Below, piece after piece: positions 4,255 to 50,855 of a stretch of 64,000 nucleotides of DNA (positions are counted from its first letter, which is position 1; each line of letters begins with the position of its first letter). The notes below the pieces were generated by a model. The model had not been told where the DNA came from and did not search any database. It saw only the letters and a list, made by a program, of their open reading frames with translations. This stretch comes from Eledone cirrhosa (Eukaryota). A program made the position numbers and the translations under genes. The stretch lies in assembly GCA_964016885.1 (NCBI GenBank), contig OZ024756.1, positions 42,594,001 through 42,658,000 on the forward strand. Direction: 5' to 3'.

Positions 4255-4720
4255 ACATTGCCAAAAGCTTTCCCGTAGAATAAGGTAAACATAAAGATAG
4301 GTAGGTCCTCAAAATGTTTGCTTTGTCCTTTATTGCAGGTCCTCAAGCAGTGTATGTACTCTGTCCTTTGTTGTATGTCCTAAAACTGTTTGCTTCTTCT
4401 GTCCTTTGTTACAGGCCCTCATATTGTCTTTGTGTATTGGAACATTTAGTCTAAGAGAACATATCTGCAGTCAGAAAAGCTGTCTTTTATTCTTTAAATA
4501 TAACCTTGTTTTATATATTAATTGGTTCATATGGATAGTTTCACTCATTATGGTAATTAAAGATATGCTGTTGTTGTTGTTGTCAGTGTAGTAGTAGTAG
4601 TTGTTGTTCTTTTCTTTCCTGTAATGGTTTTATACCATGAGACAGTTACTTCCTCAACATTCTTGGCAGTTTAGGCAGCTACTTCTTCAACCTTGTTGGA
4701 ATATAAGCAAAACAGTTGTC
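4255..4720 (-). pseudogene. Decayed terminal exon and 3' UTR of Ig-receptor copy 1
   Basis: About 4630-4693 reads VEEVAA*TAKNVEEVTVS and aligns to the copy 2 terminal exon (IEAVSVESKEKLEEISD / AEEEAVKSREKVLEGTVV). The acceptor cag aligns to caa. 4255-4580 is essentially identical to 46108-46435. Confidence 0.7.
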
Positions 4721-4804
4721 AAATATATTGTCTCTACTGCCGCACACTGTAAGAAACAAACTCTCATCTGGTCACTCTCTCTCACTTTCTTATATATACA
4801 TATA

Positions 4805-5182
4805 TCATCATCACCGTTTCACGCCCATTCTTCCACGCTAGCATGGGTTAGACAGGTTGTCCTGTTGTGGGCAGTGCCCGGTCGGCTGACCATGTCTTAC
4901 TCAGATGGGAACTGATTCTGGCTTGATTTCTACAGCTGGATGCCCTTCCTAATACCAACCTCATTTACAGTGTGGGCTGGTTCCATGGCGCCTACACGTC
5001 CACTTTACAGTGTGGGCTGGGAGCTTTTTTGTCGTGGCATCTCCACTACCACTTTGCAGCGGGTGGGGGCATATTGTTTATATGCTTCAGCTTCGGCTTG
5101 TACTCGTGGGAAGTCAGGTCTTCTGTATTACTGCGTGACGCCAGCGGTCTTTGAGAGGTGCAATTAGGTAAGGTCGGCTTTT
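4805..5182 (-). mobile_element. RTE family B 3' end (ORF end and 3' UTR)
   Basis: Matches 10960-11365, with a catcatc tail at the left end. Confidence 0.85.
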
Positions 5183-5214
5183 ATATATATATAGTTATAT
5201 ATATATATATATAT

Positions 5215-7195
5215 AAACAGAAAAAATGAAACAAAATTTCATTTCTCACTCTTAGTACGGCTGTTACTTAAATATAAGTATGTATACGTACATACATATA
5301 TGTATACAGATGTACAGTAGTATGTATATATATATACATACATGCACACATATATACATGTATGTATGGATTCACCGAACATTTATGATAATGCTCGGTG
5401 TGTTTGTAAACAAACATCCCGAATTAAGCCATACATACATGTATATATGTGTGCATGTATGTATATATATATATACATACTACTGTATGTCTGTATACAT
5501 ATATGTATGTACGTATACATACTTATATATATATATTTATATATAAAAACAAATAACGAAACGAAATTAAATTTCGTTTCGTTTGTAACTCACTTTTGTA
5601 TGACTGACGCTTAAACAATTAAGTTAAAAATGTACATCCACATATGTATACTGAAATACTAGTATGCATATGAATACACACACGTGTACATATGTAGATG
5701 TACCGAGTTTTTCACTGGTCACTTTACTGTGAGTGTCCAGCTATTCTGTATGTAAACACACAGACAAACCGGTTTTTAGAGTCATACTGGTTTTTGAGGA
5801 AACACCTTTCCTCTATTCTCCAGAAAGCCAGACAAGGAATATTGGACTAGTTTCGATGTTGTTACATCTCATCAGCAATATTTACCTATCTTCCACTACT
5901 AATTTTCATAGAAAAAGCATATAACGATATGTGCTTTTACGATTCTCTAGAAAGGCCGGAAGATAGGTAAATATTGCTGATGAGATGTAACAACATCGAA
6001 ACTAGTCCAATATTCCTTGTCTGGCTTTCTGGAGAATAGAGGAAAGGTGTTTCCTCAAAAACCAGTATGACTCTAAAAACCGGTTTGTCTGTGTGTTTAC
6101 ATACAGAATAGCTGGACACTCACAGTAAAGTGACCAGTGAAAATCTCGGTACATCTACATATGTACACGTGTGTGTATTCATATGCATACTAGTATTTCA
6201 GTATACATATGTGGATGTACATTTTTAACTTAATTGTTTAAGCGTCAGTCATACAAAAGTGAGTTACAAACGAAACGAAATTTAATTTCGTTTCGTTATT
6301 TGTTTTTATCGTCTCCGTTGAACCGGTACGTACTCACGCTCTATGCAAATTAGTCTGCCCACTACTAATTTTCATAGAAAAAGCATATAACGATATGTGC
6401 TTTTACGATTCTCTAGAAAGGCCGGAAGATAGGTAAATATTGCTGATGAGATGTAACAACATCGAAACTAGTCCAATATTCCTTGTTTGGCTTTCTGGAG
6501 AATAGAGGAAAGGTGTTTCCTCAAAAACCAGTATGACTCTAAAAACCGGTTTGTCTGTGTGTTTACATACAGAATAGCTGGACACTCACAGTAAAGTGAC
6601 CAGTGAAAAACTCGGTACATCTACATATGTACACGTGTGTGTATTCATATGCATACTAGTATTTCAGTATACATATGTGGATGTACATTTTTAACTTAAT
6701 TGTTTATTTATATATATATATATATATATTTATATATATATATATATATATTTATATTTATATATATATATATATTTATATATATATATATTTACATATA
6801 TATATATTTATATTTATATATATTTATATTTATATTTATATATATTTATATTTATATTTATATATTTATATATTTATATATTTATATTTATATATATATA
6901 TATATTTAAGCTTCAAACTAGTACATCGTTCCTGTGTCAGTGTTGAACAAAAAGGTGACGTGGTTGCCTAAACACTGTACGGCGTAATTCGGGCTGTTTG
7001 TTTGTTTACAGACAAACCGAGCATTATAATAAATGTTCGGTAAACCGATACGTGCATATATATGTGTGCATGTATGTATATATATACATACTACTGTACG
7101 TCTGTATACATATATGTATGTACGTATACATACATACATACTTACATTTAAGTAACTGCCGTACTAAGAGTGAGAAATGAAATTTCGTTTCATTC
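5215..7195. repeat. Nested inverted/direct duplication complex
   Basis: 5543-5894 is inverted at 5958-6309. About 5893-6240 is repeated directly at 6359-6706. The outer block 5215-5520 is inverted and more diverged at about 7000-7195. Three identical spurious ORFs (MSSYSVCK...) mark the copies. Confidence 0.93.
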
Positions 7196-48512: not shown

Positions 48513-48626
48513 CTTCTGTATCATTTTTTTTACGAATTATAAAAAACCAGATTAAGAACACGATCACTCCGTTAAATCCTAAAATTCCAAGGATGATACC
48601 AGCAATAGTTCCACCATCTATTCCAG
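48513..48626 (-). CDS. Ig-receptor copy 2, transmembrane exon
   Basis: gataacag|...|gttagt, 114 nt, phase 1-1. Reads PGIDGGTIAGIILGILGFNGVIVFLIWFFIIRKKNDTE. Confidence 0.9.
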
Positions 48627-50348
48627 CTGTTATCAAGATAGAAAACAACAGCAATAAATAATGTTTCTAATATAGCCACATGATTTCAAATTTGGTGGGA
48701 GGGTTATAGTTGATTATATGAACCCCAGTATTTCACTGGTACTTTATTTTATCAATCCCAGAAAGGTGAAAGACCAAGTACCTTTGTTACCGTTATCTGT
48801 TCTAGTAAGAATGACTTCTAATTTAGACAGAAGATAAGCAATTGTTGCCAAGCAAAGTGTCGATTAAATCAACCCCAGTACATAACTGGTACTTTATTTT
48901 ATCATCCTCAGAAGTATGAAAAACAAAGTTAACCCTGGCAGGATTTGACATTTTGTATTACCTATTCAGTATTTCACCTATCTGTTGTAGGTCTGTAATA
49001 ATTGAGCCAATATCATTGAACAGTGGCCTTATATGGTAGTGTACTGAAGCAAACTCTTTTGCAAATTTAAACGAGGTTTTAAGGTTGGTTTTCATATTTT
49101 ATATAACCCTGGATTCTCTTTCTACCATCTCCTTTCAAAGGGAATGTTTGAATTCAGTCTGAATTTCAAGTAGTACCCAGTTCAATTGTTGAGTGTGTTA
49201 GGTAAAGATCCCCTGAAGTCAGGAAAAAGGAACAGAGAACGATGACAATACTGTATCAGAGCTTATAATATAATTGTTTGGATCACCCAATGTAGCTGCT
49301 CTCTTTGAAAAGAACCATTTCCATTTATACAATAAATACTATAATATGTCTGTGAGAGAACTACTACATAGCTGCAACATAAAGTTATGTCATAGCCACC
49401 TCTATGACAGCATGGACCCTATTTTAACAAGTAAACACTGCACTGGGTAAGGAGGAAGCTTCTGTGGAATTGTTTAGTTGTAGATCATTCCTGATTAAGA
49501 ACTGGGATTGATAGCATTTCTATGACTATATAAAATATGTTTTTCAACTGTCTGATTATGACCATTTACTGAAAGGGTTGGATGTGATTAGAAGGAGATT
49601 TGGCTGCTGTTTCTAGCAGGACAAATCATCTGCAGCTTAATCCATCTTAAAACTTAGTCATATAAAAATAATATTAACAGCAAGCTACATAATAAACTAT
49701 TAGGTATCTGTCTTCATATAAACTCTAGTTCATTCCAAACTAAAATGATAGTTGATGGGTTTAACTACAGATCAACTGTGATGGGACAGACCGATGACTA
49801 AAGACATTCCAGTTGTGACCATCCCATCATTTTCAGATTATTTAAAGAATTCTGTCTTCCTTGAAGAGAATATAGTTATTTAAGCAAGTTGTATGACCAT
49901 GTAAATATTTCCTATTTGGTGGCAGTGGTAATAAAGGTGGTAGAGTGGTTACAATGATGATGATGATGAACATGGTTGTAGTGGCAGTCATAGTGATAGT
50001 AGTTAAACTGATCAAGATTGTGAAAGTATAAATCCAAACACAAACACAGCAGTACAGAAATATGTACACACTTAATCAAATATATGAATAATTATGTATT
50101 TCAAACATATACATATTTCACATGGAAACATACAATTATGCATATATACACACATGCATGTATACACACATAGAAAATATGTACACATACAAGCAAACAC
50201 ATTTGCAGACATGCCTGAATGTAAAAGCAGGTATGCAAGTGTGTACACACATGTATATATGTACACATATGTAGATATGTACACATATGTAGATATATAG
50301 TGATGCAGTGATAAACATATATGTACAATTTAAAGTAATACTGCTTAC

Positions 50349-50663
50349 GCTCATTCGAAATTATGATTGCAAGTGTCTTGTTAAATGCTGTACAGGTGAT
50401 CATTCTCTTGGAGAGGTCTCCAGCTTTTATTTGGTAGTTATATTTTGAATTTATCCAAACATAACAATTTCTGCTGCTGCTTTTAGGAACATCCTCAGTC
50501 TTTTTAATGTGATCTGTTTTGTCATCTGAAATTGATGTTGCCCAATCAAAATCGGCAGACACTTCAGAATCTATGGGAACAATTGCCCTACATGTGAAGG
50601 TAGATATCTGGTTAATTTTATGGTATTCACTATTAGATGAAAGTTGTTTCAACTCAGATCTCA
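50349..50663 (-). CDS. Ig-receptor copy 2, second Ig-like domain exon
   Basis: ttttcag|...C|gtaagc, 315 nt, phase 1-1. Has FTCRA, FDW, CY and ITCTA. About 39% identical to copy 1 exon 3 by hand count. Confidence 0.88.
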
Positions 50664-50855
50664 CTGAAAAGAAAGAGAAAATAAAAAGAGGTAAATCTTA
50701 GGAAAATAAATTATGAAATGAAATGTTGGATGGTTACATTAATACAAACTACAACTAAATTGTTGAATGAGGAGGTTGTTTCTGATAGGGCACTCTGGAA
50801 GGCATATGTAAGGACTCTAACCCCACAAAATTCTCATGCTGAGGGGGTGGAGGAG

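What the first reader, a model, noticed from the sequence alone, without database searches (positions are those of the whole stretch)
4255..50810. Tandem Ig-receptor paralogs with near-identical introns but strongly divergent exons
Seen: shared non-coding blocks (4255-4580/46108-46435, 9060-9570/46930-47440, 9702-10764/47492-48512 apart from SINE indels, 15421-16640/48941-50160) are almost identical. I count about 14 differences in about 1.2 kb for the last block. The coding exons between them are about 39% (Ig2, 41/105 aa) and about 50% (TM, 19/38 aa) identical, and the tail exon is barely alignable. For the TM and tail exons, identity collapses within a few bases of the splice sites. Around Ig2 the nearest 50-100 bp of intron is also diverged. 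Established: faster exon than intron evolution is known in snake venom PLA2 and conotoxin genes, and conversion mosaics are known in immune and allorecognition clusters. Inference: old paralogs whose introns are repeatedly homogenised by gene conversion while selection keeps the exons distinct, or exon-cassette exchange within a larger array. Either would be a candidate receptor-diversification system.
Basis: partly seen in the sequence, partly recalled or inferred. Interest (0 to 1): 0.9.

Follow-up and report, generated by a model that had tools for sequence, protein, structure and literature searches.

The report
Octopus receptor genes with homogenised introns
Two neighbouring genes for predicted antibody-like cell-surface receptors, likely from an octopus, have introns 99% identical but Ig and membrane exons only 35-50% alike in protein; they sit in a cluster of about a dozen such genes where DNA copying between copies likely overwrites everything except the mature-protein exons, which selection likely drives apart.

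Summary
Observation confirmed. Genes A and B (minus strand) differ at about 1% of sites in four shared non-coding blocks, but share only 35%, 39% and 49% amino acids in Ig1, Ig2 and TM. The exons are old: synonymous distance is about 0.3, and 0.01 is rejected. They belong to a 1.2-Mb cluster (12 leader, 17 Ig1-type, 17 Ig2-type exons) of an uncharacterised coleoid V-C2 Ig receptor family. Each block has different closest partners, including an inverted gene 1 Mb away. The signal-peptide exon is homogenised too, and no near-identical exon donor was found in the assembly. Younger paralogs show strong positive selection (dN/dS 3.5 in Ig2). Best reading: interlocus gene conversion that stops at exons kept distinct by selection and heterology. 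This mechanism is published (opsins, bovine CEACAM32), and the scan noted it twice on other DNA. New here is the family. Its founder carries an ITIM motif conserved to cuttlefish, beside fast-evolving paralogs such as A and B that lack it, a CEACAM-like layout I found no paper on. Function and expression are untested.

The parts
32844..32964 (-). Gene A leader (signal-peptide) exon, 121 nt; homogenised with paralogs up to 1 Mb away
31141..32451 (.). Gene A leader-Ig1 intron block, holds a decayed LINE piece; 15 of 1305 differences to gene Z, 41 of 1304 to gene C; not shared with B
30140..30481 (-). Gene A Ig1 exon, predicted V-like domain; 35% amino-acid identity to B's Ig1, which lies outside the window (C17:42667395-42667730)
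16791..17099 (-). Gene A Ig2 exon, predicted C2-like domain
16641..16790 (.). Unconverted intron flank after A's Ig2 exon (23 of 91 differences to B in the first 90 nt)
15421..16640 (.). Shared Ig2-TM intron block, copy A (99% to B and 98.5% to C)
10765..10878 (-). Gene A transmembrane exon
9702..10764 (.). Shared TM-to-short-exon intron, copy A, interrupted by an A-specific SINE near 9958-10143
9568..9701 (-). Gene A short cytoplasmic exon expanded by 18-bp repeats; donor lost, reading runs into a stop (predicted 339-aa protein)
9059..9560 (.). Shared intron block after the short exon, copy A (1-4 differences in about 505 among Z, A, B, C)
4632..4692 (-). Gene A dead tail exon (acceptor lost, in-frame stop), still diverged from B
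4255..4568 (.). Shared 3' block, copy A; letter-identical in genes Z, A and B
50349..50663 (-). Gene B Ig2 exon, predicted C2-like domain
48941..50160 (.). Shared Ig2-TM intron block, copy B; its 200 nt at 49919-50117 are 86-97% identical in seven further paralogs
48513..48626 (-). Gene B transmembrane exon
47492..48512 (.). Shared TM-to-short-exon intron, copy B, with a SINE at 47541-47682 that Z and C share and A lacks at that site
47443..47491 (-). Gene B short cytoplasmic exon, 49 nt
46930..47431 (.). Shared intron block after the short exon, copy B
46479..46632 (-). Gene B acidic tail exon to the stop codon; no ITIM (predicted 362-aa protein)
46107..46420 (.). Shared 3' block, copy B

Best explanation
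A and B are tandem paralogs with about 1% non-coding but about 30% synonymous exon divergence, in a cluster of predicted V-C2 immunoglobulin receptors whose introns, signal-peptide exon and 3' ends are likely overwritten repeatedly by short interlocus gene-conversion tracts, while the mature-protein exons likely escape because positive selection drove them apart. Once diverged, an exon would also block strand exchange physically, so tract ends would pile up at splice sites and even dead exons would stay distinct. The selective pressure is inferred to be ligand conflict at the cell surface. The founder gene (Y) is predicted to be an inhibitory ITIM receptor; A, B and most neighbours lack that tail and would act as decoy or alternative binders, as in the vertebrate CEACAM cluster. 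Shown: block identities, exon age, mosaic partners, excess amino-acid change, the ITIM motif. Inferred: conversion as the physical process, the barrier effect, the receptor/decoy role.
For: Exon age: 17 of 92 same-residue codons differ between A and B; 3000 simulated young duplicates (1-3% neutral divergence, driven to 39% identity by amino-acid change alone) gave means of 2.2-4.7 and a maximum of 12. A likelihood profile with two free omega classes peaks at dS 0.3; dS 0.01 is worse by 2dlnL 40. Mosaic partners: A's leader region groups with far genes D, E, H, K, N (5-7% against 22% to B); the leader-Ig1 intron pairs A with Z (15 of 1305); the mid TM intron pairs C with the inverted gene Y 1.02 Mb away (2 of 380, against 19-25 to A, B, Z), while the flanking segments put C far from Y (12 of 69, 23 of 192). 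A permutation test on 87 polymorphic non-coding columns gave p of 0.0008 or less for 4 of 10 pairs. Dead mobile-element pieces inside blocks are equally homogenised (SINE 1 of 142 B-Z; LINE piece 10 of 770 A-Z), which argues against functional constraint. The coding leader exon is homogenised up to its last 3-4 codons. Selection: M0 omega 3.49 (Ig2) and 1.28 (Ig1) in 12 younger exons each; M2a beats M1a by 38.8 and 33.6. Founder: Y's TM is 89% identical to the O. sinensis homologue and its tail keeps LHYAEL, as do O. sinensis and cuttlefish. Precedent read: PMC3924837 passages, PMC7042247 passages and section 9.
Against: No sister-species introns were compared, so the classic test (exons group by orthologue, introns by species) was not run; protein trees were mostly unresolved. 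The permutation test is not significant for A-B itself (p 0.068), because they are alike throughout. The site models used a coarse optimiser on a fixed tree, and conversion can inflate such tests. Why TM and short cytoplasmic exons should be kept distinct is not explained by ligand binding; A-B TM omega is 0.77. Z, D and B' carry frameshifts or stops and A's tail is dead, yet they remain unconverted, so current selection alone cannot be the barrier. The upstream Ig2 flank differs by only 5 of 94, less than dS. Nothing on expression, ligand or polymorphism was obtained.
Confidence: 0.8

Rival explanations
1. Exon-cassette exchange: A, B, Z and C are young copies of one gene body into which old exons were imported one by one from donors, the homogenised introns serving as recombination handles.
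For: Domain mosaics exist. Y joins an S-like ectodomain (Ig1 16 amino-acid and 0 synonymous codon differences, Ig2 4 and 1) to the founder TM and tail. N/P are outgroups for Ig1 but ingroup for Ig2, and S/Y the reverse. An O. vulgaris model matches O. sinensis at 67 of 67 TM-region and 101 of 103 C2 residues but 65 of 104 V residues, while another O. vulgaris model has the 92 of 102 V.
Against: No donor found: best other matches are 40% (B Ig2), 43% (A Ig1) and 44% (A Ig2), all in the cluster (B Ig1, TM and tail exons were searched only in the fetched region). It needs many separate imports from missing donors. The cross-species cases rest on automatic gene models.
Confidence: 0.09
2. Recent duplication with extreme positive selection only, no conversion (the snake PLA2 / conotoxin reading, recalled).
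For: Selection can be extreme here: E and S Ig2 exons differ in 54 of 104 codons by residue but in 1 of 49 same-residue codons, dS about 0.03.
Against: A-B dS 0.01 is rejected. Non-coding DNA of two ages lies in one intron (23 of 91 next to 12 of 1219). Block partners change along the gene.
Confidence: 0.03
3. Assembly artefact: collapsed or chimeric introns, or two alleles placed in tandem.
For: The 3' block is letter-identical in three genes. The three informative runs are one sample and may be the assembly's source. No listed contig bridges A's or B's own exon with 31 letters on both sides. Diploid single-copy depth was not measured.
Against: A, B and C lie in one stretch without an assembly gap and carry different insertions and private variants (6, 8 and 9 in one block). 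Run X3 holds contigs with 10 listed letters all matching A's intron variants, two of them absent from C. Contigs in X2 and X3 join Y-type and Z-type short exons to B-like intron on both sides. Four to five genes share blocks, more than two alleles allow.
Confidence: 0.04
4. An intron-specific copying process (for example templated by excised intron RNA) that spares exons regardless of selection.
For: For TM and short exons identity switches within 0-6 nt of the splice sites in several genes.
Against: The leader exon, upstream DNA and 3' block are homogenised too, and 90-150 nt of intron next to Ig2 is not. No A-to-G excess appears in exon changes.
Confidence: 0.03
5. Purifying selection on intronic regulatory sequence.
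For: A 200-nt intron piece is 86-97% identical in seven far paralogs.
Against: Dead SINE and LINE pieces are as similar as their surroundings, and large insertions interrupt the blocks.
Confidence: 0.01

Closest known systems
Bovine CEACAM32 versus CEACAM1 (PMC7042247; abstract, passages and section 9 read)
   Same: [quoted passage not shown]
   Different: No sequence homology shown. There one gene escapes while the others homogenise their N domains; here at least Z, A, B, C and Y all keep distinct exons, TM and cytoplasmic exons included, at 26-49% identity among A, B and C, with exchange over 1 Mb and across an inversion.
Primate red/green opsins and leaf-monkey RNase1 under the 'peak of divergence' model (PMC3924837; passages read)
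   Same: Introns homogenised, exons diverged, selection restricting conversion.
   Different: Those are gene pairs with few selected sites; here every mature-protein exon is a deep peak across a multigene array with ongoing dN/dS above 1.
Primate CEACAM cluster with decoy receptors and N-domain shuffling (PMC8860441; passages read)
   Same: Positive selection on extracellular Ig domains, conversion among paralogs, receptor-plus-decoy logic; an ITIM founder with short-tailed, GPI-like and repeated-domain relatives (GPI-like ends read from homologue sequences).
   Different: There conversion shuffles Ig domains; here it mostly avoids them. No ligand is known here, and no activating partner was found in A or B.
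Hydractinia Alr allorecognition cluster (10.1101/2022.03.04.482883; abstract and passages read)
   Same: Invertebrate cluster of divergent V-type Ig receptors poorly seen by Pfam, with ITIMs in some tails, duplication and exon shuffling.
   Different: Alr domain 1 lacks the pin cysteines and most carry Fn3; these genes keep cysteines and have no Fn3 exon. No allorecognition role is shown here.
Uncharacterised octopod proteins LOC115221679 and relatives, and a cuttlefish 'unnamed protein'
   Same: True homologues: same V-C2-TM layout, GLDGGT-type TM and tyrosine tail in the founder.
   Different: They carry no functional name; six LOC ids gave no paper. A and B ectodomains are only 32-39 of about 101 identical to the O. 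sinensis founder.

Membership tests
Immunoglobulin superfamily | Beta-sandwich Ig fold in domain 1 (V-like) | tested here: met
   Model pLDDT 83.7, eight strands; the Foldseek top 50 are mostly antibody V/VHH chains by title, probability 1.00, TM 0.5-0.7.
Immunoglobulin superfamily | C2-like fold with Cys-Trp-Cys core in domain 2 | tested here: met
   C24, W40, C90 invariant in 11 of 11; seven-strand model pLDDT 87.7, though 3 of 5 models were poor; Atlas first hit C2-set_2 at 0.93. Foldseek gave only weak beta-sandwich hits, none at E 0.001.
Immunoglobulin superfamily | Match to a Pfam Ig profile | tested here: not met
   No Ig family for 3 exons or 11 Ig2 members; no PDB sequence relative.
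Exon escape from concerted evolution (opsin / CEACAM32 pattern) | Exons older than the shared non-coding blocks | tested here: met
   dS about 0.3 against 25 differences in 2316 non-coding sites.
Exon escape from concerted evolution (opsin / CEACAM32 pattern) | Conversion tracts in introns and leader, with changing partners | tested here: met
   own permutation test, not GENECONV.
Exon escape from concerted evolution (opsin / CEACAM32 pattern) | Exons group by orthologue across species, introns by species | not testable with these tools
   No related genome is held; protein trees unresolved.
ITIM-bearing inhibitory receptor clusters | ITIM [ILVS]xYxx[ILV] in a cluster member | tested here: met
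   LHYAEL in gene Y, O. sinensis and cuttlefish; consensus as given. Absent from A and B.
Paired (activating plus inhibitory) receptors | Activating partner with ITAM or charged TM residue | tested here: not met
   No YxxL/I in A or B tails; no charged residue in their TM cores (sequence). Other paralog tails were not scanned.
CEACAM family | Sequence homology to CEACAMs | tested here: not met
   no such match; 15 of 20 hits looked up are named, all octopod. It works like CEACAM; it is not filed as one.
CEACAM family | Pathogen adhesin or homophilic binding | not testable with these tools
   No binding data obtained.
Hydractinia Alr | Cys-less V domain plus Fn3 fold | tested here: not met
   Ig1 keeps invariant cysteines; exon order is leader, V, C2, TM.
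Allorecognition loci | Extreme allelic polymorphism predicting self/non-self outcome | not testable with these tools
   One RAD-seq run laid gave almost no depth on exons.

The most novel reading that the evidence does not exclude
The cluster is a cephalopod self/non-self or pathogen-recognition locus in which homogenised introns work as recombination handles, so whole V, C2, TM and tail exons are swapped between genes and give combinatorial receptor haplotypes around one conserved ITIM receptor: an independently evolved, CEACAM/KIR-like diversification system in octopuses.
Probability: 0.2. Interest if true: 0.85.

Novelty: new member of a known kind. Interest (0 to 1): 0.6.

Why it matters
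Cephalopods have no described rapidly diversifying recognition receptors in the papers my searches reached. This cluster gives concrete candidates: a conserved ITIM receptor and about a dozen positively selected relatives. It makes cephalopod immune or self recognition testable by expression, haplotype and binding work. As evolution, it is an unusually deep multigene example of selection holding exons apart under conversion, with an internal control (the homogenised signal-peptide exon).

Tried and rejected
Pfam scans and a PDB sequence search found no family. A word-based search with the Ig1 alignment among longer proteins found nothing. No RNA holder was listed; this says nothing on expression. 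Reads were laid only on window 46050-50100, so B's Ig2 exon and gene A's own locus have no read check. Contig depths (shared 3' block 28.3 and 19.5 against exon contigs 14.5 and 8.6 in X1 and X2) fit several copies but are not copy numbers and were given little weight. A homodimer prediction for Ig1 was never run, so there is no verdict on binding. A genome search with the O. sinensis founder failed; its tail exons were found by fetching flanks instead. NG86 dS (0.43-0.47) was set aside as inflated by multi-hit codons in favour. IQ-TREE omega values were not parsed. RNA-editing write-back was rejected: A>G 0.17-0.23 per A against G>A 0.19-0.31 per G. Paper searches (10 of 10 used): none described this family; PMC9258296, PMC11431876, PMC13428168 and PMC11999971 were read by passages without a mention, and PMC9779670 passages describe intron homogenisation within silk genes, a different case. 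The supplement of PMC11431876 (octopus skin-mucus proteome) could not be read and might list these proteins.
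Full report
Observation. Global alignment gives 314 of 314, 500 of 502, 605 of 615 and 1207 of 1219 identical sites. 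The exons between them are 39% (Ig2) and 49% (TM) identical in protein, and Ig1 is 35%. The TM exon has 32 mismatches in 114 nt against 2 in 130 flanking nt. Genome searches with three blocks and the leader found close matches only in this region; elsewhere there are 72-82% matches to old repeat pieces and two 45-nt hits.

Gene models. Both genes are on the minus strand: leader, Ig1, Ig2, TM, short exon, tail. Spliced by GT-AG sites, A reads open for 339 residues and B for 362. B's leader and Ig1 lie right of the window. A has lost the donor of its short exon, which is expanded by 18-bp repeats and runs into a stop; its tail exon has lost its acceptor and holds a stop. The models are inferred from sequence; no RNA run was listed.

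Cluster. The window is G000:C17:42594001-42658000. I fetched 42.41-43.84 Mb. It holds 12 leader matches, 17 Ig1-type and 17 Ig2-type exons, and 13 TM-region matches between 42.54 and 43.72 Mb. Exon order suggests some genes repeat the V-C2 unit. I name genes by position: Z, A, B (with a dead upstream duplicate B'), C, then D-S, and the inverted Y. Protein searches of the whole assembly found members only here. Three assembly gaps exist, none between A, B and C. Two Ig1/Ig2 sets of 16 and 15 intact exons were used for codon work; B' Ig1, Z Ig2 and D Ig2 were left out as broken.

Identity. Pfam and PDB sequence searches are blank. The Ig1 model matches antibody V domains. Ig2 has an invariant Cys-Trp-Cys core and a C2-set first hit in the Atlas, with only weak Foldseek support. 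A profile search gave 23 hits; of 20 looked up, 15 carry names, all uncharacterised octopod proteins. The genome is therefore likely octopod (inference). The tail of one homologue also finds a cuttlefish protein. Gene Y is the likely orthologue: TM 89% identical, with tail exons at 43.716, 43.765 and 43.798 Mb. The motif LHYAEL, which fits the ITIM consensus quoted in 10.1101/2022.03.04.482883, is kept in Y, O. sinensis and cuttlefish. A TxYxxV/I motif (ITSM consensus, recalled) is in Y and cuttlefish but not O. sinensis. A and B tails have neither.

The exons are old. Between A and B, 17 of 92 same-residue codons differ. Simulated young duplicates pushed to the same protein identity gave at most 12 in 3000 runs. 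A likelihood profile over 248 codons peaks at dS 0.3, with 0.2 and 0.45 within 3.0 and 1.4 units of 2dlnL and 0.01 worse by 40. The four shared blocks differ at 25 of 2316 sites. Unconverted non-coding DNA of matching age survives: 23 of 91 after Ig2, and 39 of 231 in the B-C 3' region; the upstream Ig2 flank is less diverged, 5 of 94.

The shared blocks are a mosaic. A's leader region is 5-7% from D, E, H, K and N but 22% from B; the leader exon itself is nearly identical in 11 genes until its last 3-4 codons, and a 137-nt piece is identical in Y. A pairs with Z in the leader-Ig1 intron. A, B and C form a star in the Ig2-TM intron (15-18 of about 1080). C pairs with the inverted Y in one 380-nt island (2 differences) but not on either side of it. 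Z, A and B share the 3' block exactly. A permutation test on 87 polymorphic non-coding columns gave p below 0.05 for 6 of 10 pairs and 0.0008 or less for 4; A-B was 0.068. Dead SINE and LINE pieces inside blocks are as similar as their surroundings in B-Z and A-Z, though the SINE differs at 10 of 142 in B-C. B and B' repeat the pattern: 7 of 1363 in the intron, 68 of 329 in Ig1.

Selection. In 12 younger exons per domain, M0 omega is 3.49 (Ig2) and 1.28 (Ig1); M2a beats M1a by 38.8 and 33.6, with 11 sites each above 0.95 (coarse optimiser, fixed tree, conversion ignored). E and S Ig2 differ by residue at 54 of 104 codons but at 1 of 49 same-residue codons, with differences spread evenly.

Artefact check. 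Contigs from three runs of one sample were laid on 46050-50100. They include contigs with A-type intron letters, and contigs joining Y-type and Z-type short exons to B-like intron on both sides. No listed contig bridges A's or B's own exon by the tool's 31-letter rule, and the sample may be the assembly's source.

Mechanism. The best fit is repeated short interlocus conversion that homogenises whatever selection and local similarity allow, with exons held apart first by positive selection and then by heterology (inferred). The homogenised leader exon and the unconverted Ig2 flanks argue against an intron-specific process. No donor for three tested exons exists in the assembly, but domain mosaics (Y with S; N/P against S/Y; O. 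vulgaris models with different V exons on the same C2-TM) keep exon swapping alive as a secondary outcome. The receptor-and-decoy role is an analogy, untested.

Comparison and verdict. The pattern is published for opsins and RNase1 (PMC3924837) and almost exactly for bovine CEACAM32 (PMC7042247). This scan noted it on two other genomes (not checked by me). My paper searches found no description of this family; subscription papers are not covered. It is a new, deep, multigene member of a known kind, in an undescribed cephalopod ITIM-receptor cluster. Interest 0.6.

Noticed in passing
G000:C17:43653399-43653713 and 42732627-42732941 (L050, L018): Ig2 exons of S and E differ by residue at 54 of 104 codons with 1 synonymous codon difference; dS about 0.03. 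An extreme selection signal.
   Followed up: partly
G000:C17:43653399-43797903: The ITIM gene Y and its head-to-head neighbour S share nearly the same ectodomain (Ig2 4 residues apart), like a receptor-decoy pair; an assembly gap lies between them.
   Followed up: partly
G000:C17:42667395-42682153 (L011-L013): B has a 12-kb upstream duplicate of leader, intron and Ig1; intron 7 of 1363 different, Ig1 exon 68 of 329 and broken.
   Followed up: yes
TM-like exons at C17:42716, 42731, 42745, 43270, 43440, 43607, 43640 kb: Several end early or shift frame at homopolymer runs of varying length; they may give GPI-like or secreted forms, or be sequencing errors. Q has two TM-like exons in tandem.
   Followed up: no
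Proteins P0029, P0030, P0002: O. vulgaris and O. sinensis founder models share C2 and TM almost exactly but differ at 39 of 104 V residues; another O. vulgaris model carries the matching V.
   Followed up: partly
window 37367-39367: A 2-kb stretch with 216-nt inverted repeats at 37370-37585/38115-38330 is 99.3-99.5% identical to two inverted copies at C17:43435-43437 and 43593-43595 kb; probably a recent transposon.
   Followed up: no
window 5612-6706: Nested near-perfect direct (348 nt) and inverted (283 nt) repeats inside A's last intron.
   Followed up: no
window 14253-14965 and 29552-29770: A 74-bp tandem array of 9.6 copies in A's Ig2-TM intron; a degenerate TTAGGG-like array downstream of A's Ig1.
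   Followed up: no
window 1-1414, 11258-13626, 17635-20409, 24595-25185, 27615-28776, 35349-37139, 43075-44448, 51205-53980, 60871-63240: Mobile-element frames: several LINE reverse transcriptases, a Tc1-like transposase, a PIF1-like helicase and GIY-YIG-type frames (names recalled from motifs, not searched).
   Followed up: no
G000:C17:42483184-42484567: An inverted 67-81% match to the shared 3' block, with no Ig exon found nearby.
   Followed up: partly
G000:C17:42750000-43240000: About 490 kb inside the cluster without family exons; F's Ig2 and TM have no leader or Ig1 on their side of it, and a gap lies at 43232445.
   Followed up: no
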